Virus genome (UHGV): UHGV-0060642
Direction: 5' to 3' (one strand)
Source: a virus
DNA: 41,777 bases
This document shows positions 1 to 40,488 of the stretch, piece after piece. Position 1 is the first letter of the stretch; every line of letters begins with the position of its first letter. A model generated the notes under the pieces. The model searched no databases and was not told where the DNA came from. It was given only the letters and a program-made list of their open reading frames with translations. The position numbers were made by a program, and so were the translations under genes.

Positions 1-49
1 TTATCAATTTGTTGCAACGAACAGGTCACTATCAGTCAAAATAAAATCA
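1..49. promoter_or_regulatory. attL: attL P' arm (partial) with Int arm-type binding sites
   Basis: Sequence ...caggtcactatcagtcaaaataaaatcattatttgatttc... matches recalled lambda P' arm with arm-type repeats (aggtcactat, cagtcaaaat); lies immediately 3' of int. Confidence 0.85.
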
Positions 50-1120
50 TTATTTGATTTCAATTTTGTCCCACTCCCTGCCTCTGTCATCACGATACTG
101 TGATGCCATGGTGTCCGACTTATGCCCGAGAAGATGTTGAGCAAACTTATCGCTTATCTGCTTCTCATAGAGTCTTGCAGACAAACTGCGCAACTCGTGA
201 AAGGTAGGCGGATCCCCTTCGAAGGAAAGACCTGATGCTTTTCGTGCGCGCATAAAATACCTTGATACTGTGCCGGATGAAAGCGGTTCACGACGAGTAG
301 ATGCAATTATGGTTTCTCCGCCAAGAATCTCTTTGCATTTATCAAGTGATTCCTTCATTGATATCCCAAGAGCATCAACATGCAATGTTGTTGGGATGGC
401 AATTTTTACGCCGGTTTTGCTTTGCTCGACATAAAGATAGCCATCTACGATATCAGACCACTTCATTTCGCATAAATCCCCAACACGCTGCCCGGTAACA
501 ACAGCCAGTTCCATTGCAAGTCTAAGCCAACATGGTGATGATTCTGCTGCTTGATAAATTTTCAGGTATTCGTCAGCCGTAAGTCTTGATCTCCTTACCT
601 CTGATTTTGCTGCGCGAGTGGCAGTGACCGGGTTTGTTGTTATATGGCCTTCAGCTATTGCCTCTCGGAATGCATCGCTCAGTGTTGATCTGATTAACTT
701 GGCTGACGCCGCCTTGCCCTCGTCTATGTATCCATTGAGCATTGCTGCAATTTCTTTTGTGGTGATGTCTTCAAGTGGAGCATCAGGCAGCCCCCTCCTT
801 ATTGCTTTAATTTTGCTCATGTAATTTATGAGTGTCTTCTGCTTGATTCCTCTGTTGGCGAGGATTTTTTCGTAGCGATCAAGCCATGAATGTAACGTAA
901 CAGAATTATCACTGTTGATTCTCGCTGTCAGAGGCTTGTGTTTGTGTCCTGAAAATAACTCAATGTTGGCCTGTATAGCTTCAGTGATTGCTATCCTCCT
1001 GTCTCGGCCTAATCCAAACTCTTTACCCGTCCTTGGGTCCCTGTAGCAGTAATATCCATTGTTTCTTATATAAAGATTAGGGGGTAAATCCCGGCGCTCA
1101 TGACTTCGCCTTCTTCCCAT
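50..1120 (-). CDS. int: Tyrosine integrase, lambda Int type
   Basis: 356 aa; N-terminus MGRRRSHERRDLPPNLYIRNNGYYCYRDPRTGKEFGLG and C-terminal catalytic region (HELRSLSARLY...HLLGH...Y) match recalled lambda Int almost residue for residue; ATG verified. Confidence 0.97.
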   Translation of the reverse strand: MGRRRSHERRDLPPNLYIRNNGYYCYRDPRTGKEFGLGRDRRIAITEAIQANIELFSGHKHKPLTARINSDNSVTLHSWLDRYEKILANRGIKQKTLINYMSKIKAIRRGLPDAPLEDITTKEIAAMLNGYIDEGKAASAKLIRSTLSDAFREAIAEGHITTNPVTATRAAKSEVRRSRLTADEYLKIYQAAESSPCWLRLAMELAVVTGQRVGDLCEMKWSDIVDGYLYVEQSKTGVKIAIPTTLHVDALGISMKESLDKCKEILGGETIIASTRREPLSSGTVSRYFMRARKASGLSFEGDPPTFHELRSLSARLYEKQISDKFAQHLLGHKSDTMASQYRDDRGREWDKIEIK

Positions 1121-1316
1121 TTTTGATCCTCTTCAAAAGGCTACCTGTTACTGGTCGATTTAAGTCAACCTTTACCGCTGATTCGTGGAACAGATACTCT
1201 CTTCCATCCTTAACCGGAGGAGGGAATATCCTGCACTCGCGTACCCATCGACGAACTGTTTCAAGGCTTCTTGGGCGTCGCTGGCGTGCGTTCCACTCCT
1301 GAAGTGTCAAGTACAT
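1098..1316 (-). CDS. xis: Excisionase Xis
   Basis: 72 aa MYLTLQEWNARQRRPRSLETVRRWVRECRIFPPPVKDGREYLFHESAVKVDLNRP matches recalled lambda Xis; overlaps int start as in lambda. Confidence 0.95.
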   Translation of the reverse strand: MYLTLQEWNARQRRPRSLETVRRWVRECRIFPPPVKDGREYLFHESAVKVDLNRPVTGSLLKRIKNGKKAKS

Positions 1317-1340
1317 CGCAAAGTCTCCGCAATTACACGC

Positions 1341-1364
1341 AAGAAAAAACCGCCATCAGGCGGC
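1341..1364 (-). terminator. Putative rho-independent terminator on the leftward transcript upstream of xis
   Basis: Minus-strand hairpin ccgcc-tgat-ggcgg followed by a run of T (approximate coordinates). Confidence 0.5.
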
Positions 1365-7658: not shown

Positions 7659-7699
7659 TCCCGCATTTCGGCGGGACAATCCCATCAATGTTAAAGAGC
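7659..7699 (-). promoter_or_regulatory. nutL: nutL (boxA plus boxB hairpin)
   Basis: Minus strand reads GCTCTTTAACA (boxA-like) then hairpin TCCCGC-cgaaat-GCGGGA; the same boxA and boxB occur in nutR. Confidence 0.7.
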
Positions 7700-8889: not shown

Positions 8890-9183
8890 ATGGTTCGTGC
8901 AAACAAACGCAACGAGGCTCTACGAATCGAGAGTGCGTTGCTTAACAAAATCGCAATGCTTGGAACTGAGAAGACAGCGGAAGCTGTGGGCGTTGATAAG
9001 TCGCAGATCAGCAGGTGGAAGAGGGACTGGATTCCAAAGTTCTCAATGCTGCTTGCTGTTCTTGAATGGGGTGTCGTTGACGACGACATGGCTCGATTGG
9101 CACGACAAGTTGCTTCGATTCTCACCAATAAAAAACGCCCGGCGGCAACCGAGCGTTCTGATCAAATACAAATGGAATTTTAA
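8890..9183 (+). CDS. c1: CII-type lysogeny activator (P22 C1-like)
   Basis: MVRANKRNEALRIESALLNKIAMLGTEKTAEAVGVDKSQISRWKRDWIPKF... matches recalled P22 C1; start set at the internal ATG of the longer track ORF. Confidence 0.9.
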   Translation: MVRANKRNEALRIESALLNKIAMLGTEKTAEAVGVDKSQISRWKRDWIPKFSMLLAVLEWGVVDDDMARLARQVASILTNKKRPAATERSDQIQMEF

Positions 9184-14972: not shown

Positions 14973-15157
14973 ACGCCACAATTCAAACGATACCAGAGCT
15001 TCTTATCCAGACACGAGGCAATCAGACCGAAGTGGCAAGGATGCTTTCCTGCGCAAGAGGAACAGTGCTCAAGTACAACCGAGACAGCAAAGGCGAGCGT
15101 CACGTAATAGTTAACGGCGTCCTGATGGTCAAACAGGGCAAAAGGGGAAGGCCATGA
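14969..15157 (+). CDS. ninH: NinH-like protein
   Basis: 62 aa; TIPELLIQTRGNQTEVARMLSCARGTVLKY resembles lambda NinH. Confidence 0.8.
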   Translation: MNATIQTIPELLIQTRGNQTEVARMLSCARGTVLKYNRDSKGERHVIVNGVLMVKQGKRGRP

Positions 15158-15777
15158 GACTCGAAAGCGTAGCTAAATTTCATTCGCCAAAAAGCCCAAT
15201 GATGAGTGACTCACCACGGGCTACGGCTTCTGACTCTCTTTCCGGTACTGATGTGATGGCTGCTATGGGGATGGCGCAATCACAAGCCGGATTCGGTATG
15301 GCTGCATTCTGCGGCAAGCACGAACTCAGCCAGAATGACAAACAAAAGGCTATCAACTATCTGATGCAATTTGCACACAAGGTATCGGGGAAATATCGTG
15401 GTGTGGCAAAGCTCGAAGGAAATACTAAGGCAAAGGTACTGCAAGTGCTCGCAACATTCGCTTATGCGGATTATTGCCGTAGTGCCGCGACGCCGGGCGC
15501 AAGATGCAGAGATTGCCACGGTACAGGCCGTGCGGTTGATATTGCCAAAACAGAGCAGTGGGGGAGAGTTGTTGAGAAAGAGTGTGGAAGATGCAAAGGC
15601 GTCGGCTATTCAAGGATGCCAGCAAGCGCCGCATATCGCGCTGTAACGATGCTAATCCCCAACCTTACCCAACCCACATGGTCACGCACTGTTAAGCCGC
15701 TGTATGACGCTCTGGTGGTGCAATGCCACAAAGAAGAGTCAATCGCAGACAACATTTTGAATGCGGTCACACGTTAG
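15154..15777 (+). CDS. Q: Late gene antiterminator Q (lambda type)
   Basis: 207 aa, essentially identical to recalled lambda Q (MRLESVAKFHSPKSPMMSDSPRATASDSLSGTDVMAAMGMAQSQAGFGMAAF...). Confidence 0.97.
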   Translation: MRLESVAKFHSPKSPMMSDSPRATASDSLSGTDVMAAMGMAQSQAGFGMAAFCGKHELSQNDKQKAINYLMQFAHKVSGKYRGVAKLEGNTKAKVLQVLATFAYADYCRSAATPGARCRDCHGTGRAVDIAKTEQWGRVVEKECGRCKGVGYSRMPASAAYRAVTMLIPNLTQPTWSRTVKPLYDALVVQCHKEESIADNILNAVTR

Positions 15778-27514: not shown

Positions 27515-28362
27515 TGGCGGATTCATCACTGAATAATCCTGTCGCGGTTCAGGCTACGCGCCTTGATGCTTCAATTTTGCCACGCAATATATTCAGCCAG
27601 TCTTACCTGCTGTATGTCATAAATCAGGGTGCTGATGTTGGTAACGTGGCTAACAAGGCCAACGAGGCCGGACAGGGCGCTTATGATGCACAGGTCAGGA
27701 ACGATGAGCAGGATGTGATTCTCGCTGACCATGAGCAGCGAATTTCTGCTGCGGAAGCAACGCTTGTTAATCATGAGGAGCGAATCAGCCAGGCAGAATC
27801 AACTCTTCAGGAACATGAAACACGAATAGCTCAGAATGAAAGCGATATTGCGTCGCTTGATACCAGAGTTCAGTCGCTGGAATCGCAGGTTTCAGACCAT
27901 GAAACGCGCATCGATGCTCTGGAGTATGCCACTACTCGCAAGAAGTCAGAGGTTGTTTACTCTGGCGTATCTGTAACCATCCCGACAGCGCCGACCAACC
28001 TTGTTAGCCTGCTGAAAACGCTAACGCCGTCATCCGGCACGTTGGCACCATTCTTCGACACCGTTAACAACAAGATGGTTGTGTTCAACGAGAACAAAAC
28101 CTTGTTCTTCAAGCTGTCGATCGTCGGGACGTGGCCCAGCGGAACCGCCAACAGGTCAATGCAGCTAACCTTTTCCGGCTCTGTTCCTGACACACTTGTG
28201 AGCAGTCGTAATGCGGCGACAACAACCGATAACATCCTGTTAGCTACGTTCTTCAGCGTGGATAAAGACGGCTTTCTTGCCACAAATGGCAGCACGTTAA
28301 CCATTCAGTCGAATGGTGCGTCGTTTACTGCCACAACCATCAAAATCATTGCGGAGCAGTGA
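27514..28362 (+). CDS. Tail needle, P22 gp26-like, with extended C-terminal knob domain
   Basis: N-terminal 60 aa ([36 protein letters not shown]...) match P22 gp26; heptad coiled coil; about 120-aa C-terminal extension not present in P22. Confidence 0.85.
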
Positions 28363-32963: not shown

Positions 32964-33293
32964 TTAGTCATCCATGGATGGATTGAGCTTATCTCGTGTT
33001 GATGTGGCAATTTTCCCAACATTTTTCAACCAAGATTTTAAGAAGGATATGTCGTCCTTAATATCATGAATATCCTCATTCTTTATACGATCAACCTTAT
33101 CCTCTAGGCTCTCTATAGAACGCTCAATGCTAGACAGAGAGATTTTTAAGTCTCCTTGATCACGTTCCAGTGAGGATTTGAGAGCACAATATTCGTTTTC
33201 TAGAATTCCTATTTTTTTTGTTAGAGAGTGCATTCGATACTCATACACCAAACCAGAAACGACTAATGCAGCCAACAGAAACCATTCAAGCAC
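32964..33293 (-). CDS. Uncharacterized single-pass membrane protein with coiled coil (cassette gene C)
   Basis: 109 aa; GTG start preceded by AAGGGGG with about 5-nt spacing; N-terminal hydrophobic helix LEWFLLAALVVSGLVY, remainder predicted coiled coil. Confidence 0.65.
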   Translation of the reverse strand: MLEWFLLAALVVSGLVYEYRMHSLTKKIGILENEYCALKSSLERDQGDLKISLSSIERSIESLEDKVDRIKNEDIHDIKDDISFLKSWLKNVGKIATSTRDKLNPSMDD

Positions 33294-33315: not shown

Positions 33316-33735
33316 TTATTTGTATGAAATCAACGAGTTAAGCTCCCTCTCATTTAGAGATTGGAATCTTTTTTCAGTTATATCAATGATGGCTGGCAAT
33401 AGTTTTTTTACCTTCTCATGACCATCAGGTTTAATGATAGCAATGATCTGGATATGAATTGGATATGTGTTGTGTACCGCAAATATCAAAAAGTTATCGC
33501 TAACTCTACGATGTATTGGCGTTGTTTTTAACCAAGGATCATCTACTCCAGGGATCCTGATGTGCGACTTGTAAATTCCCGATAAGACGGCGTGATGGTT
33601 TCTCTCAAACCCACCAATCTTACCAAGATAAGCTGAAACGGTGCCTCTGTTTTTGTAGTTTGCAAGAGCCTTCGCAAAGTATTGTTCTAATGGTCCAGCC
33701 GCTGCATCTACAACAATGCTTATGCGGTTTTCCAT
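33316..33735 (-). CDS. Uncharacterized protein, possibly YafO-like toxin fold (cassette gene B)
   Basis: 139 aa, ATG; segment SDNFLIFAVHNTYPIHIQIIAIIKPDGHEK resembles the recalled YafO C-terminal region (...HLVYCQG...LLIAILKPEPHK); weak and unverified. Confidence 0.65.
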   Translation of the reverse strand: MENRISIVVDAAAGPLEQYFAKALANYKNRGTVSAYLGKIGGFERNHHAVLSGIYKSHIRIPGVDDPWLKTTPIHRRVSDNFLIFAVHNTYPIHIQIIAIIKPDGHEKVKKLLPAIIDITEKRFQSLNERELNSLISYK

Positions 33736-34319
33736 TTTGGTGCTTCCATGCCAAATCTTTTATGTGAATCTTCAACTGATTTCTTGAATGAAGCCAACTC
33801 TTCTTCAGTGAACTCTTCAGGTTCAGCATATGATAGTGGTATGTGCTGCATTGCTAGCGTCACAAGCCCCATAGTTAGCCTTTTGTATTCTATAAAAGTA
33901 TTTATTGAGTGGTTTTTCATTGTTGTAAGAGTTGACATATGGGGCTTCCACGCATCGCTGTTCTCAGCGATGAAGAAGGTATACAACAGTTTCGCGATAC
34001 CATAATCAAGCTTAGATATTTGATCGTTCAACATATCTACATCGTCATGTTGAATATCAAGTGAGGAAATATCTTCTTCCGTACCATTACTTAATAGGTC
34101 AATGAATGTAATGTACTTTTTGCAAACTTCCTCTACAGGTGACATAACGCAGTAGATCTTGCTAAGAGCTTCAGAAGCCTGTTTTTTAGACAAAGAGCCG
34201 CTATGACTGCGATCAAAGTCTGAAATTGAACGCTCGATAGATGTTGATATGTCAGAAAAAACGTTTTCAATTTTTCCTGGCTCTTGATTCAGGATGGCCA
34301 TAACGCCTATCTCAATCAC
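33720..34319 (-). CDS. Uncharacterized acidic protein (cassette gene A)
   Basis: 199 aa from GTG at 34319 (AAGGT upstream) or 193 aa from ATG at 34301; overlaps gene B by 16 nt; about 42 bp downstream of mnt on the same strand. Confidence 0.6.
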   Translation of the reverse strand: MIEIGVMAILNQEPGKIENVFSDISTSIERSISDFDRSHSGSLSKKQASEALSKIYCVMSPVEEVCKKYITFIDLLSNGTEEDISSLDIQHDDVDMLNDQISKLDYGIAKLLYTFFIAENSDAWKPHMSTLTTMKNHSINTFIEYKRLTMGLVTLAMQHIPLSYAEPEEFTEEELASFKKSVEDSHKRFGMEAPKWKTA

Positions 34320-36188: not shown

Positions 36189-36689
36189 TTACCTACTCAA
36201 CAGATGGTCAGCAACCATGTTTGCTGCCTTATAAGCTATAGCCGCTTCATCAATGGTGTTGAATCTCCCAAGGGTTATGTTTTTACCTGAGACATTTATC
36301 TGAGCTTGCCATTGATTTCTGGCTTGACAGAAAGTTACCCCCTTGATTCCAGCATTGCTATTTCGAGGTCCGACATTTAATGCATTTACGACTCTGCTAA
36401 CATCCCTAAGGTTTGAGATTGCGTTATTTCTTCTGTTTCTATCAATGTGGTCAATCTCTTGTTTGGGCCATTCGCCATATACATACAGCCAGGCAAGTCT
36501 ATGTGCAAAATATCTTACGCCATCAATATTAATTGCGTTATATCCATAAGAAATTGTGCCAGCAACTTTCCCAACAGCACCTCTGGCGCTTAATTTCTTT
36601 TTCCAAGTGAAAATTCCTGTTTCTTTATTGTAATCGAGAACCTCCATAAGGCGCTCCCGAGTTACTACCTCGTGACGTCTCTTACTCAT
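36189..36689 (-). CDS. HNH endonuclease with AP2-type DNA-binding domain (homing-endonuclease-like)
   Basis: HNH signature [26 protein letters not shown]2-like [40 protein letters not shown]; start at internal ATG 36689 preceded by GGAG. Confidence 0.8.
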
Positions 36690-36702
36690 TATTTTCTCCG
36701 GA

Positions 36703-39417
36703 ATGTTTATTATGCCAGAACAATTATACAACGTAGTTGTTTCACAACCAAGTCAGTTATTTACTTTAGCTCGCTCGTTTAAAGCAAATGCCAATGGCAA
36801 AATTTATATCGGTAAAATTGACACTGACCCGGTAAATCCTGAAAACCAGATTCAAGTTTATGTAGAGAACGAAGATGGCTCTCACGTTCCTGTTGCACAG
36901 CCAATCGTCATCAATGCCGCTGGGTATCCAGTATATAACGGACAGATTGCCAAATTCGTAACCGTGCAAGGCCATTCTATGGCTGTTTACGATGCTTATG
37001 GCACTCAGCAGTTTTATTTTCCAAATGTATTAAAATACGATCCAGATCAGTTTGGCCCAGACTTCAAAGAGCAGTTATCTCAATCAGGAGCATACATTAA
37101 TGATGATTCAAAAGGTGATGCATTAATTGGGGTAAGGCAGCCATTTACCGGGGCTGTAACTATAACTCAGCATGAAAACAATGCTCTTTTCTTAAATGTA
37201 AAACAATTCGGAGCAATTGGGGATGGGAAATATCATCCATTATCTGAGAGGTTTTCTTCAATTTCTGAAGCAAAATCCTTATATCCTTTTGTTGACTCAT
37301 TATCTCAGTCAATAGACTGGGCCGCGTGGCAAGCTGCCCTTAACACAGGAAAGGTTATTTATGGTACTGATAATGCGTATGTAATAACGGATACGTTAAC
37401 ACCTGTTTCTGGTGGTGGGATAATTGGTCTTGGTGTGGGCAAATGGGTCTCCGGATATACTGCAACATTTGCTCCTGATATTACCACAGGGACCACATTC
37501 CTGATGTACGGGGTAGGAAATAAAAAATATACTGTAGATTGTGTTTCTAATATGGATGTTAGTGGTGGTGTGGTTTCTAATCCATCTTCCGAAGACCCGT
37601 ATACAACAACAGCACCTGCGTCATCATATGATTTATTGGATTTTACTAACGGTGATGCTAATGGGACTACAAGAGCCACGCTTAAACCATTCTCTGCCGC
37701 AATATTGATGCCTGAGACAGGATGTGTTCGCCTTGAGAACTTTCGTGTTGTTCCATATTTCAATGGGCTGGATGGTTATAAAGACATTGCAAATACCGGT
37801 CTTGGCGATGAGTGGGATGTAGGTATTTGGTCACGTGCGTCTTTTGGCAATGAATACCGCAATTTGCAGGTGGTTGGATACTGGCGCAAGACGGCACTTT
37901 TAAAAACGAACATTCCTGTATCTGGCACGCTGGCTGCTCAGGGCGAGGATGAAAACTATTATCACTGTAGATTCCAGGGATTCAAGGGTGTTTCGATCCG
38001 CGCCAATGATGTATTCCGAATTACAGCGGTAACGTCCAGCACTATCGAAATCCCATGGTCAGCAAGCCACACCTTCGAAACGTCCGGAGTTTTAAGATCT
38101 GGAGGCAGGAATTTCACTTATTCAGGATTATCCGTATCCGGTGATAAGTTAGTATTTACTGGAGTGTCTAACGCTTCTGAGGCAACAGTAGGTTCTACTA
38201 TACGGCGAAATGACATAGATAACTTTGGTATGGCGGGAACGCAATTTTTCGATTGCTACATTACCAGCCTGTATCACCACACACATCTGCTTGCCACATC
38301 GCAATACCTGTCTCAACCATTCAGCCGACCATCAGAGTGTATGGAGGTTTCAGGGGAACCAGTTCGCGGTGTACAGGTACATGCAGGAACCATTCAGGGA
38401 TGGGATGATGTTCTTATTCATCTGCATGACTGTGGAAATATGAACTTTTACAGTACATATTTCGAAAGCCAGCAAGCATATGTAACTATAAATGGTGGTA
38501 ATGCTATTGGTTATGGAGCACGTATGATAGCTTCCCGGCAATCAACAAGCTCATTACCATATGCAGCAGGGAATACACGAGTGCTTAGAATGGTCGGGTG
38601 CTCTGAAGGCAATGGCGTTGACTGGGGTCCTGTATTTAACAACTATACAGGAGGAAGATATAATTCTGGAGACGGTGTATTTAACCCCCGCGATGCATTT
38701 ATAGACCATAAATCTCTTCCTGAGCAGTCAGGAGGTGAGTCAAGACTCGTATCACAAAAAGGAAATGCCAGAGTAGTATGTGGTGTTGGTAAAACTGTAC
38801 TGCTTGGACCAACGTCAGGAGATTGTAATTTACAGAGTAATACCGGAAGTTTAAATATTAGAAGTGGGATAAGAGTAAGAGTCGGTCACGCTGATGGAAC
38901 AGACTGGTGGTTGGCAGATGCTAATAAAATAGCTCCTGTTGATGATAATGTTAAAGCTATTGGACAGCCATCAAACAGATGCTCTGTTATCTATGCAGGA
39001 ACCGGGTCAATCAATACATCAGATGAAACTCTTAAAACAAGATATGATATTCTTAATGCAGAGCGTGATGCCGCTATTGAAATAAAGTCAGTCATCTATA
39101 AATTTAAATTTAATGACTCAATTAATCACAAAGGAATTGAGTCGTCCAGGTATCATTTTGGCGTTGGCGCTCAAACTGTAGGGGATATTCTTAGAAAGCA
39201 TGGTTTAAATCCTGAGCAATATGCTTTTTGGTGTTACGATGAATGGCCTGACGTATGGGATGAAGAGGTGATAACTGAAGAGAGCACAGATCCTGATACA
39301 GGTGAGAAAATTTATTCTCAATATAAAACAGGAGATATGATTCTTGTAAAAAAAGCAGGAGGACGCTACGGAATTCGTTATGACGAATTGGCTATGTTTA
39401 TATTAATGGCAATGTAG
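36703..39417 (+). CDS. Tailspike: P22-type head-binding domain, central beta-helix domain, C-terminal intramolecular-chaperone (S74-like) domain
   Basis: N-terminus ...[49 protein letters not shown]...[15 protein letters not shown]...NVLKYDPDQ matches the P22 gp9 head-binding domain; C-terminus ...[11 protein letters not shown]...[23 protein letters not shown] resembles auto-cleaving chaperone domains of T5 pb1 and K1F endosialidase; alternative ATG at 36712. Confidence 0.88.
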
Positions 39418-39435
39418 TTGCAATAAATGCAGTAT

Positions 39436-39465
39436 ATCCCGCATAAAAATGCGGGATTGTTTTTA
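39436..39465 (+). terminator. Rho-independent terminator after the tailspike
   Basis: ATCCCGC-ataaaaat-GCGGGAT followed by TGTTTTT. Confidence 0.75.
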
Positions 39466-39725
39466 TCTGGTGTATTTATGAATTTTAAGTAAATTTTAGT
39501 ATTGATTACTGCATCGCAGTTAAAGCCTCATTACCTATGAGGCAAAACTGAGACACACAAGGCTTTGCACTGGATTGCAAGGCTTTGTGCTATCTGAGAT
39601 ATAGCAATGTTGGTTGCTCCACCTTTTCATCAAGCCAGTCCGCCCACCACTGCATCATTTCTCTGCGCTTATCGAGATACTGAGCATGGTTGTAAATTCA
39701 ACTAACCCAGTGAGTTGACAAAAAA

Positions 39726-39760
39726 TTAGCGCAAGAAGAAAAAAAATCACCTTGCGCTAA
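39726..39760 (-). promoter_or_regulatory. sib: sib/tI-like retroregulatory hairpin
   Basis: 10-bp stem TTAGCGCAAG ... CTTGCGCTAA around an A-rich loop, just left of the P arm as in lambda. Confidence 0.55.
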
Positions 39761-39930
39761 TGCTCTGTTACAGGTCACTAATACCATCTAAGTAGTTGAT
39801 TCATAGTGACTGCACATGCTGTGTTTTGCAGTATTATGTAGTCTATTATTTAGATCAAAACCATCATAACACATTGATATTGATGATTTTTCTTGTTTCT
39901 CATTCAGCTTTTTTATACTAACTTGAGCGA
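39761..39930. promoter_or_regulatory. attR: attR (lambda P arm, core GCTTTTTTATACTAA near 39907-39921, host B' arm)
   Basis: ctgttacaggtcactaataccatctaagtagttgattcatagtgactgca... matches recalled lambda attP P arm; core followed by CTTGAGCGAAACGGGAAGGTAAAAAG, recalled as E. coli attB right-side sequence. Confidence 0.9.
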
Positions 39931-40011
39931 AACGGGAAGGTAAAAAGACAAAAAGTTGTTTTTAATACCTTTAAGTGATACCAGATGGCATTGCGCCATC
40001 TGGCAGAGTGA

Positions 40012-40488
40012 TTAACTAAACATCGCAGTAATCGAGGCACTCGCCAGAGAGTGAAAATGAACGTTAAACCCGACCATCGCGCCGCTGGCACCTTCATCGA
40101 CATCAATACGTTCTACATCCAGCGCGTGAACGGTAAAAATGTAGCGATGGGTTTCGCCTTTCGGCGGCGCTGCGCCATCGTACCCGGTTTTACCAAAGTC
40201 GGTACGCGTCTGCAAAACGCCGTCTGGCATAGCTACCAGACCAGAGCCAAACCCTTGCGGTAATACGCGGGTATCAGCGGGTAAATTAACAACTACCCAG
40301 TGCCACCAGCCGGAGCCGGTTGGCGCATCCGGGTCATAGCAGGTGACAACAAAACTTTTCGTTCCCACAGGAACATCATCCCACGCCAGATGCGGTGAAA
40401 TATTATCGCCATCGTAACCCATGCCGTTAAAGACATGACGATGCGGCAGCTTATCGCCATCGCGCAGATCGTTACTGATGAGTTTCAT
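40012..40488 (-). CDS. ybhB: Host YbhB (PEBP/RKIP-family protein)
   Basis: 158 aa MKLISNDLRDGDKLPHRHVFNGMGYDGDNISPHLAWDDVP...; PEBP-family motifs; located next to attB-lambda in E. coli. Confidence 0.9.
   Translation of the reverse strand: MKLISNDLRDGDKLPHRHVFNGMGYDGDNISPHLAWDDVPVGTKSFVVTCYDPDAPTGSGWWHWVVVNLPADTRVLPQGFGSGLVAMPDGVLQTRTDFGKTGYDGAAPPKGETHRYIFTVHALDVERIDVDEGASGAMVGFNVHFHSLASASITAMFS

What the first reader, a model, noticed from the sequence alone, without database searches (positions are those of the whole stretch)
39726..39921. sib-like hairpin kept beside the attR P arm
A 10-bp-stem hairpin lies just left of the P arm, as lambda sib/tI does. In the prophage it is separated from int, consistent with lambda-style retroregulation that limits Int expression only from the unintegrated genome.
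Basis: partly seen in the sequence, partly recalled or inferred. Interest (0 to 1): 0.2.

Follow-up and report, generated by a model that had tools for sequence, protein, structure and literature searches.

The report
Lambda sib/tI hairpin at prophage attR
The hairpin is the well-known lambda "sib/tI" element, which destabilises integrase mRNA only in unintegrated phage DNA, carried here almost unchanged by a P22-like E. coli prophage, so the finding is real but ordinary.

Summary

- **The hairpin.** A perfect 11-bp inverted repeat lies at 39725-39761. It becomes 12 pairs as minus-strand RNA through one G-U pair. It is flanked by a weaker lower helix (39718-39723 with 39763-39768).
- **Match to lambda.** The extended hairpin equals lambda 27536-27585 at 49 of 51 positions. 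Both differences are in the apical loop. It directly abuts the Int arm-type site P1, and the attR core GCTTTTTTATACTAA is at 39907-39921.
- **The rest of the circuit.** At the far end of the prophage lie Int (98% identical to lambda Int), Xis and a pI/CII box. N-like, CII and CIII genes are also present.
- **Strand.** On the int-sense (minus) strand the hairpin is followed by UUUUUUGU, which makes it the tI terminator. Only read-through RNA is predicted to add the lower helix, giving an RNase III-sized duplex.
- **Rival excluded.** On the plus strand no U-run follows the hairpin, and the tailspike gene has its own terminator at 39436-39457. A bidirectional tailspike terminator is therefore not supported.
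- **Conservation.** Across the 70 hairpin-bearing sequences compared (67 viral contigs, lambda, 434 and this window) the stem is essentially invariant, although seven unrelated left flanks abut it.

The element is already known. Function in this phage is inferred, not tested.

The parts
39725..39761 (-). Upper sib/tI hairpin. The stem is ATTAGCGCAAG / CTTGCGCTAAT: 11 bp in DNA and 12 pairs as minus-strand RNA with one G-U. The loop is 15 nt.
   Evidence: Both stems are 11/11 identical to lambda 27543-27578. The loop differs by C->A and one extra A. The right arm is invariant, and the left arm differs in one of the 58 distinct 295-nt alleles and one of the 40 distinct hairpin alleles.
39718..39724 (-). 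U-tract (UUUUUGU on the minus-strand RNA) that follows the hairpin. It is the release site of the tI terminator and also the 3' arm of the lower helix.
   Evidence: It is invariant from 39719 to 39725 in 58 alleles.
39763..39768 (-). 5' arm (ACAGAG) of the lower helix. It pairs with UUUUGU only in RNA that reads through tI, extending the duplex to about 20 bp.
   Evidence: Folds. RNA ending at 39720 shows only the upper hairpin, whereas read-through RNA adds this helix. In 40 alleles 99.5% of cells are paired, and the one-sided changes are mostly G-U compatible on this strand.
39762..39906 (.). Lambda-type P arm of attR. The Int arm-type sites P1 (39766-39785) and P2 (39798-39817) map here from the lambda annotation.
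   Evidence: P1 is 20/20 identical to lambda, P2 is 19/20, and the arm overall (counted over 39769-39906) is 118/141.
39907..39921 (.). attR core GCTTTTTTATACTAA (the common core of lambda att). Host DNA follows.
   Evidence: unique, 0 expected by chance; 15/15 identical to lambda; ybhB flank in E. coli genomes.
1..49 (.). P' arm of attL. The window starts 24 nt after the core, which is therefore outside the window.
   Evidence: the first 30 nt of the window equal the lambda sequence that begins 24 nt after the core.
50..1120 (-). int, the gene that the hairpin regulates when the phage DNA is not integrated.
   Evidence: 350/356 residues identical to lambda Int.
1098..1316 (-). xis
   Evidence: phrog_629 excisionase, E = 8e-23.
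1329..1342 (-). CII box TTGCGTGTAATTGC of the pI promoter, just upstream of the xis start codon (1316).
   Evidence: It is identical to the stretch annotated as the CII-controlled pI promoter in phage 434.
7048..7347 (-). N-like antiterminator, needed for pL transcripts to read through tI.
   Evidence: phrog_271, E = 1e-36. The boxA-like GCTCTTTAAC at 7690-7699 and a boxB-like hairpin at 7659-7676 were seen by eye only.
8890..9183 (+). cII, the activator of pI.
   Evidence: phrog_191, E = 8.5e-42. The pRE box lies at 8899-8912 on the minus strand.
39436..39457 (+). The tailspike gene's own intrinsic terminator. It is context for the rival explanation and not part of sib.
   Evidence: 9-bp stem followed by TGTTTTTATC, 19 nt after the tailspike stop codon at 39417.

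Best explanation
The hairpin at 39718-39768, read on the minus strand, is the orthologue of bacteriophage lambda's sib/tI element. It travels as the left edge of a portable lambda-type sib-attP-int-xis cassette that now sits in a P22-like (Lederbergvirus) prophage at the E. coli lambda attachment site.

**Mechanism, inferred from lambda.** In circular or linear unintegrated DNA the order on the int-sense strand is xis-int-attP-sib.
1. CII-activated pI transcripts stop at the hairpin plus U-tract (tI). They end in a compact 12-bp hairpin, are stable, and give Int without Xis for integration.
2. pL transcripts modified by the N-like antiterminator read through.
3. The U-tract and the next bases then pair with ACAGAG upstream, lengthening the duplex to about 20 bp.
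4. Host RNase III cuts this duplex, and 3'->5' exonucleases degrade the int message, so little Int is made during lytic growth.

**Effect of integration.** Integration splits attP, leaving sib at attR, 38.6 kb from int at attL. After induction, pL transcripts of the prophage lack sib, so both Int and Xis are made for excision.

**Shown here:** the anatomy, the orthology, the strand asymmetry, the predicted alternative folds, the presence of all partner genes, and strong conservation.

**Inferred:** termination, RNase III cleavage and the effect on Int.
For: **Orthology.**
- 49/51 identity to lambda 27536-27585. Both stem arms are 11/11, and both differences are in the loop.
- The homologous hairpin is annotated as a terminator in phage 434 and as 'Transcription terminator tI' in lambda-derivative O276.

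**Position.**
- It abuts Int site P1.
- It lies 233 nt past the int stop in the reconstructed attP, against 232 nt in lambda.

**Strand.**
- The minus-strand RNA has three invariant G-U pairs and folds at -22.8 kcal/mol, z = -6.2. The plus strand folds at -19.5 kcal/mol with no lower ACAGAG/UUUUGU helix.
- UUUUUUGU follows the hairpin only on the minus strand.

**Two-state fold.** RNA ending at 39720 shows only the upper hairpin (-18.1 kcal/mol). Read-through RNA adds the lower helix (-22.8 kcal/mol).

**Partners.** Int is 98% identical to lambda Int. The pI/CII box is present, as are Xis, CII, CIII and N-like proteins.

**Conservation.**
- 70 sequences carry the hairpin: 67 of the 120 viral contigs sharing the P1 anchor, plus lambda, 434 and this window.
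- In 58 distinct 295-nt alleles the right arm is invariant and the left arm differs in one, while the 75 nt to the left average 64% identity with no invariant column.
- Seven unrelated left flanks abut the hairpin.
- In 40 distinct hairpin alleles 99.5% of structure cells are paired. Ten one-sided changes keep pairing through G-U on the minus strand, and four cells are unpaired.

**Mechanism in lambda.** A sib site distal to int makes Int expression differ between pI and N-antiterminated pL transcripts (PMC2951348). PMC5300877 reports lower int than xis mRNA early in infection because of retroregulation by sib. The RNase III step and the tI read-through model come from my own knowledge of Guarneros et al. 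1982 and Schmeissner et al. 1984, which I could not read here.
Against: - There is no experimental evidence for this phage.
- The stems never vary on both sides, so covariation neither supports nor tests the fold. No pair changes on both sides, and the shuffles are indistinguishable from the observed values.
- The window carries a minority loop allele. The window plus three viral contigs have it. It shortens the apical mini-helix from three pairs in lambda to two, with unknown effect.
- nutL was identified by eye only.
- I could not retrieve the positions of the classical sib/hef mutations or the RNase III cuts, so their conservation is argued only from overall identity.
- The attL core is outside the window, so attP was reconstructed with 24 nt borrowed from lambda.
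Confidence: 0.88

Rival explanations
1. The hairpin acts only as a leftward intrinsic terminator, with no RNase III-dependent retroregulation in this phage. It would end pI transcripts in free phage DNA. In the lysogen it would block read-through from host ybhB into the antisense strand of the tail genes.
For: A hairpin plus U-tract lies on the minus strand. ybhB (40012-40488, minus strand) is transcribed towards attR and the hairpin. The minority loop allele differs from lambda. The lower helix is weak: six pairs, two of them G-U.
Against: Every base of both helices is identical to lambda, where retroregulation is established. The lower-helix bases and the U-tract partner are conserved across unrelated flanks. 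The N-like antiterminator needed for read-through is present. A terminator role is part of the sib/tI model rather than an alternative to it.
Confidence: 0.06
2. The hairpin is a bidirectional terminator that ends the rightward tailspike operon.
For: The stem also forms on the plus-strand RNA (-19.5 kcal/mol, z = -4.9). It lies downstream of the tailspike gene, and an A-run precedes it on the plus strand.
Against: On the plus strand the hairpin is followed by GCUCUGUUACAGG, with no U-tract. The tailspike gene has its own canonical terminator at 39436-39457 plus a T-run, 19 nt after its stop codon. About 270 nt of relic integrase/attP sequence separate the two. The same hairpin occurs next to seven unrelated left flanks, including lambda's, which has no tailspike.
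Confidence: 0.02
3. The hairpin is a passive passenger. It is conserved only because it is physically contiguous with the P1 arm of attP and was acquired recently. It has no role in the P22-like genetic background.
For: The lower helix overlaps the edge of Int site P1 (39766-39785). All sequences are close relatives, so conservation could reflect recent shared ancestry. No compensatory changes were found.
Against: The P arm diverges much more than the hairpin over the same sequences: 118/141 against 49/51 versus lambda, with many variable P-arm columns. The recombination breakpoints with seven different left flanks all fall just outside the lower helix and never inside it. The pI, CII and N partners are intact.
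Confidence: 0.04

Closest known systems
Bacteriophage lambda sib / tI (retroregulator of int; lambda 27536-27585, NC_001416)
   Same: The sequence matches at 49/51, with all helix bases identical. Position relative to attP P1, the core and int is the same, as are the strand, the U-tract and the predicted short (tI) and extended (read-through) folds. The partner set is also the same: Int 98% identical, Xis, pI/CII box, CII, CIII and an N-like protein.
   Different: The apical loop has C->A and one extra A, leaving a two-pair rather than three-pair apical mini-helix. The left flank is not lambda's b region but a relic of an Sf6/HK633-type integrase and attP. The host genome is a P22-like podovirus rather than a lambda siphovirus.
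The same element in phage 434 (OL657226, annotated 'terminator') and in the P22-like phage JEP4 (MT740315)
   Same: They share the hairpin, the P arm and the left flank containing the integrase-3' relic. JEP4 is also a Lederbergvirus with tailspike -> sib -> attP -> int order.
   Different: Their loop alleles are lambda-like (GAC kept) with variable A-run length. JEP4 also has changes in the lower-helix region, reading GCCCTGTCT.
Phage 21 downstream-of-int stem-loop described by A. Campbell (PMC3530522)
   Same: It is a stem-loop downstream of int likened to lambda sib, with CII-type recognition sequences nearby. The window also has a TTGC-N6-TTGC box, 160 nt left of the hairpin.
   Different: Phage 21 lacks a CII box upstream of int, whereas this prophage has the lambda pI box. 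No phage 21 sequence was compared here.

Membership tests
lambda sib/tI retroregulatory element | Lies distal to int, beyond attP on the P-arm side, so that integration separates it from int | tested here: met
   The hairpin abuts P1 and lies 145 nt left of the core. In the reconstructed attP it is 233 nt past the int stop, against 232 nt in lambda. In the prophage it is at attR while int is at attL.
lambda sib/tI retroregulatory element | Sequence homology to the lambda sib region | tested here: met
   49/51 identity to lambda 27536-27585, with the stems 22/22.
lambda sib/tI retroregulatory element | G+C-containing hairpin followed by a U-tract on the int-sense strand (intrinsic terminator tI for pI transcripts) | tested here: met
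   A 12-pair hairpin followed by UUUUUUGU on the minus strand, with no U-tract on the plus strand. The generic terminator scan missed it because its loop limit is 8 nt. Termination itself was not measured.
lambda sib/tI retroregulatory element | Read-through (pL) RNA forms a longer duplex that the terminated (pI) RNA cannot form | tested here: met
   ViennaRNA folds of RNA ending at 39720 against RNA extended to 39712, 39690 or 39640. This is an in silico test only.
lambda sib/tI retroregulatory element | Wild-type bases at the positions of the sib1/2/3 and hef13 mutations and at the RNase III cut sites | tested here: inconclusive
   The original papers are not held, so the positions are not known to me. 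All helix bases equal lambda wild type and only two loop positions differ.
lambda sib/tI retroregulatory element | Cleavage by host RNase III followed by 3'->5' decay of int mRNA | not testable with these tools
   This needs an in vitro RNase III assay or an rnc+/rnc- comparison.
lambda sib/tI retroregulatory element | Dual transcription of int: a CII-dependent pI next to the xis start, and an N-antiterminated pL | tested here: met
   The pI box TTGCGTGTAATTGC at 1329-1342 is identical to the annotated 434 pI. CII and N-like proteins are present. The nutL boxA/boxB were seen by eye only.
Rfam-curated RNA family | Match to any Rfam 15 covariance model at its gathering score | tested here: not met
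   Only two sub-threshold chance hits were found: 22 bits against a 54-bit cutoff and 20 bits against 86. None of the 4227 Rfam 15 models reached its gathering score here. This does not bear on membership of the lambda element.

The most novel reading that the evidence does not exclude
A conserved block left of the hairpin carries a CII-type box, TTGCACTGGATTGC, at 39565-39578 on the plus strand. The block lies about 61 nt from sib in lambda-type flanks and about 150-167 nt in 434-type flanks. The phage 434 record annotates it as a CII site.

The novel reading is that this box drives CII-dependent rightward transcription across sib, antisense to the int 3' UTR. That would modulate retroregulation during the lysogeny decision, which is the kind of downstream CII control that Campbell suspected for phage 21.

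My evidence leans against it:
- The block is a relic of the region between int and attP of an Sf6/HK633-type module.
- The -10 region is poor.
- About half of the hairpin-bearing sequences lack the box.
- TTGC-N6-TTGC is not enriched in the window.

None of this excludes the reading.
Probability: 0.04. Interest if true: 0.45.

Novelty: already known. Interest (0 to 1): 0.08.

Why it matters
It matters little beyond correct annotation, because sib/tI retroregulation of int is a textbook lambda mechanism and this copy is nearly identical to lambda's.

The modest added value is comparative. The hairpin is the conserved left edge of a portable sib-attP-int-xis cassette. That cassette has been grafted onto at least seven unrelated genomic contexts, including P22-like podoviruses. 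This is consistent with selection to keep the distal regulator with the gene it controls.

The hairpin also gives annotators a marker for the true left boundary of lambda-type attP. The host junction together with this prophage's 434-type left flank is present in 392 of 5426 complete E. coli genomes.

Tried and rejected
1. **Rfam scan of 39300-40100.** It returned only two sub-threshold chance hits.
2. **Covariation test on 40 distinct alleles.** The stems are essentially invariant. No pair changes on both sides, and the shuffles are indistinguishable from the observed values, so the test is uninformative.
3. **Retrieval of the primary sib papers and the Casjens & Hendrix lambda review.** Neither Guarneros 1982 nor Schindler & Echols 1981 is held. 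Further literature searches gave only brief secondary descriptions. 'Sib' hits in the RNase III transcriptome papers refer to the unrelated Ibs/Sib toxin-antitoxin sRNAs.
4. **Generic terminator scan.** It did not flag the hairpin because its loop limit is 8 nt. The strand asymmetry was therefore read directly from the sequence and the folds.
5. **Bidirectional tailspike terminator.** Rejected: there is no U-tract on the plus strand, and the tailspike has its own terminator at 39436-39457.
6. **The TTGC-N6-TTGC box at 39565-39578 as a CII-dependent promoter.**
   - The count in the window is not above chance: 5 against 3.7 expected.
   - The box is absent from about half of the hairpin-bearing sequences.
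   - It lies in a relic of an Sf6/HK633-type int-attP region.
   - It is kept only as a low-probability lead.
7. **The 32-codon plus-strand ORF at 39608-39706.** Its homologue in phage 434 is annotated as a hypothetical protein. I regard it as spurious, because the conserved reading frame there is the minus-strand integrase relic.

Full report
**What the window is**

The window holds a complete P22-like prophage. Its virion genes resemble those of CUS-3, Kapi1, HK620 and JEP4. The 904-aa tailspike (36703-39417) has the P22 head-binding domain.

The window starts inside a lambda-type P' arm. Its first 30 nt equal the lambda sequence that begins 24 nt after the att core. The rest of the lambda-type regulatory set follows:
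- int at 50-1120 (minus strand), 350/356 identical to lambda Int
- xis at 1098-1316
- the pI CII box TTGCGTGTAATTGC at 1329-1342, identical to the stretch annotated as the CII-controlled pI in phage 434
- CIII, an N-like antiterminator, and CII, with ORFs of cI-repressor and cro size and position between them, identified by eye only

The right end carries the core GCTTTTTTATACTAA at 39907-39921, unique in the window. Host ybhB follows. The prophage therefore sits at the E. coli lambda attachment site, and 39762-39921 is attR. The closest genome is UPEC_U013, at 99.8% identity. In all, 392 of 5426 complete E. coli genomes cover at least 80% of the 621-nt query (39480-40100), which spans this prophage's left flank, the hairpin, the P arm and the host junction.

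**The observation**

A perfect 11-bp inverted repeat, ATTAGCGCAAG / CTTGCGCTAAT, lies at 39725-39735 and 39751-39761 with a 15-nt loop. It extends imperfectly to 39718-39768.

It is the only perfect inverted repeat of at least 11 bp with a 3-20 nt loop in the window; random sequences give 0.31 on average. The minus-strand RNA folds at -22.8 kcal/mol, z = -6.2.

**What it is**

Alignment with lambda, 434 and JEP4 shows that the hairpin and P arm are homologous throughout.
- Base by base, 39718-39768 equals lambda 27536-27585 at 49 of 51 positions. Both stem arms are 11/11, and the two differences (C->A and one extra A) are in the loop.
- Lambda's annotated Int-binding site 1 maps to 39766-39785 at 20/20, so it overlaps the edge of the lower helix. 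Site 2 maps to 39798-39817 at 19/20.
- The homologous hairpin is annotated as a terminator in phage 434 and as "Transcription terminator tI" in the lambda derivative O276.
- No Rfam model reaches its gathering score here.

**Which strand acts**

On the minus (int-sense) strand the hairpin is followed by UUUUUUGU. On the plus strand it is followed by GCUCUGUUACAGG, with no U-tract.

Three pairs of the structure are G-U in every allele. They exist only in the minus-strand RNA and would be A-C mismatches on the plus strand.

The tailspike gene has its own canonical terminator at 39436-39457, 19 nt after its stop codon.

**The two-state fold**

I rebuilt attP from the attR left part, 24 nt borrowed from lambda, and the attL right part.
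- The hairpin begins 233 nt after the int stop codon, against 232 nt in lambda.
- RNA ending in the U-tract at 39720 is predicted to carry only the 12-pair hairpin.
- RNA that continues leftward adds a six-pair lower helix, ACAGAG/UUUUGU, plus two more pairs. This gives an interrupted duplex of about 20 bp.

This matches the classical picture. pI transcripts end at tI and are stable, whereas N-antiterminated pL transcripts read through and create an RNase III substrate. The papers I could read state that a sib site distal to int makes Int expression differ between pI and pL transcripts, and that sib lowers int mRNA relative to xis early in infection (PMC2951348; PMC5300877). The RNase III step and the exonucleolytic decay come from my own knowledge of Guarneros et al. 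1982 and Schmeissner et al. 1984, which the library does not hold.

**Conservation**

Seventy sequences carry the same hairpin: 67 of the 120 viral contigs that share the P1 anchor CAGGTCACTAATAC, plus lambda, 434 and this window.
- In 58 distinct 295-nt alleles the right stem arm is invariant and the left arm differs in one. Variation is confined to the loop.
- The 75 nt to the left average only 64% column identity, with no invariant column.
- The left flanks fall into seven unrelated classes that all join within a few bases of the lower helix.
- Counting the proposed structure on 40 distinct hairpin alleles gives 99.5% paired cells. Ten cells carry a one-sided change that keeps pairing through G-U, and four cells are unpaired. 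No pair changes on both sides.

The data therefore show strong conservation and a sharp module boundary, but no covariation evidence. The window's loop allele (A8, without the C) is shared with three viral contigs. It shortens the apical mini-helix from three pairs to two, with unknown effect.

**What lies to the left**

The stretch 39593-39697 on the minus strand encodes about 35 codons of the C-terminus of an Sf6/HK620/HK633-type integrase. It matches HK633 int at 97% and is preceded by a stop codon. The next 65 nt or so match the stretch between int and the annotated attP of HK633.

The ancestor thus had the integration module usual for these P22-like phages, and a lambda-type sib-attP-int-xis cassette replaced it, with the joint immediately left of sib. 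Phages 434 and JEP4 share this relic. Lambda keeps about 45 nt of it.

The relic contains TTGCACTGGATTGC at 39565-39578, which the 434 record annotates as a CII site. Several observations weaken that reading:
- Such boxes are not enriched in the window: 5 found against 3.7 expected. Three of the five are the pI and pRE boxes and a box inside the 207-aa ORF at 15154-15777, where lambda's paQ would lie (not checked).
- About half of the hairpin-bearing sequences lack the box.

Campbell's remark about CII-type boxes near a sib-like stem-loop downstream of phage 21 int (PMC3530522) keeps this as a low-probability lead.

**Verdict**

The element is lambda sib/tI itself, already known, carried in a mosaic P22-like prophage. 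Its mechanism here is inferred from near-identity and an intact partner set, not tested. Interest is low.

Noticed in passing
window 39540-39697 (minus strand): This is a relic of an Sf6/HK620/HK633-type integration module. About 35 C-terminal integrase codons (IYNHAQYLDKRREMMQWWADWLDEKVEQ...) are followed by about 65 nt that in HK633 lie between int and attP. The same relic occurs in phages 434 and JEP4, and lambda keeps about 45 nt of it. It marks the joint where the lambda-type cassette replaced the older module.
   Followed up: yes
window 39565-39578 (plus strand); phage 434 locus L002 1527-1550: A CII-type box, TTGCACTGGATTGC, lies 160 nt left of the hairpin. The phage 434 GenBank record annotates it as a CII binding site. 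It is present at about -61 or about -160 from sib in roughly half of the 70 hairpin-bearing sequences. It is not enriched over chance in the window and lies inside the relic attP arm. Campbell described similar boxes near a sib-like stem-loop in phage 21.
   Followed up: partly
70 hairpin-bearing sequences: 67 viral-contig loci (L004-L122), lambda L001, 434 L002 and the window: Seven unrelated classes of left flank abut the same hairpin within a few bases of the lower helix. sib is therefore the recurrent left breakpoint of the portable lambda-type integration cassette.
   Followed up: partly
window 36189-36731 (minus strand): A 180-aa ORF with HNH_3 and AP2 domains, resembling a homing endonuclease, lies antisense to and overlaps the start of the tailspike gene.
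   Followed up: no
window 33316-33735 (minus strand): A 139-aa ORF matches the YafO type II toxin family. The neighbouring minus-strand ORFs at 32964-33293 and 33720-34319 have no Pfam match. This may be a toxin-antitoxin or defence cargo in the late region.
   Followed up: no
window 36703-39417: The tailspike combines the P22 head-binding N-terminus with a weak endosialidase-type C-terminal intramolecular chaperone domain (Peptidase_S74). Its receptor-binding middle part has no Pfam match.
   Followed up: no
window 39981-40003 and 40012-40488 (minus strand): Host ybhB is transcribed towards attR. A 9-bp perfect hairpin (CCAGATGGC/GCCATCTGG) without a U-tract follows it. In the lysogen the sib/tI hairpin would be the first canonical terminator met by any ybhB read-through into the prophage.
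   Followed up: no
window 7659-7699 (minus strand): A boxA-like GCTCTTTAAC and a boxB-like hairpin (UCCCGC-CGAAAU-GCGGGA) lie between the presumed pL and the N-like gene. This is a putative nutL, seen by eye only.
   Followed up: no
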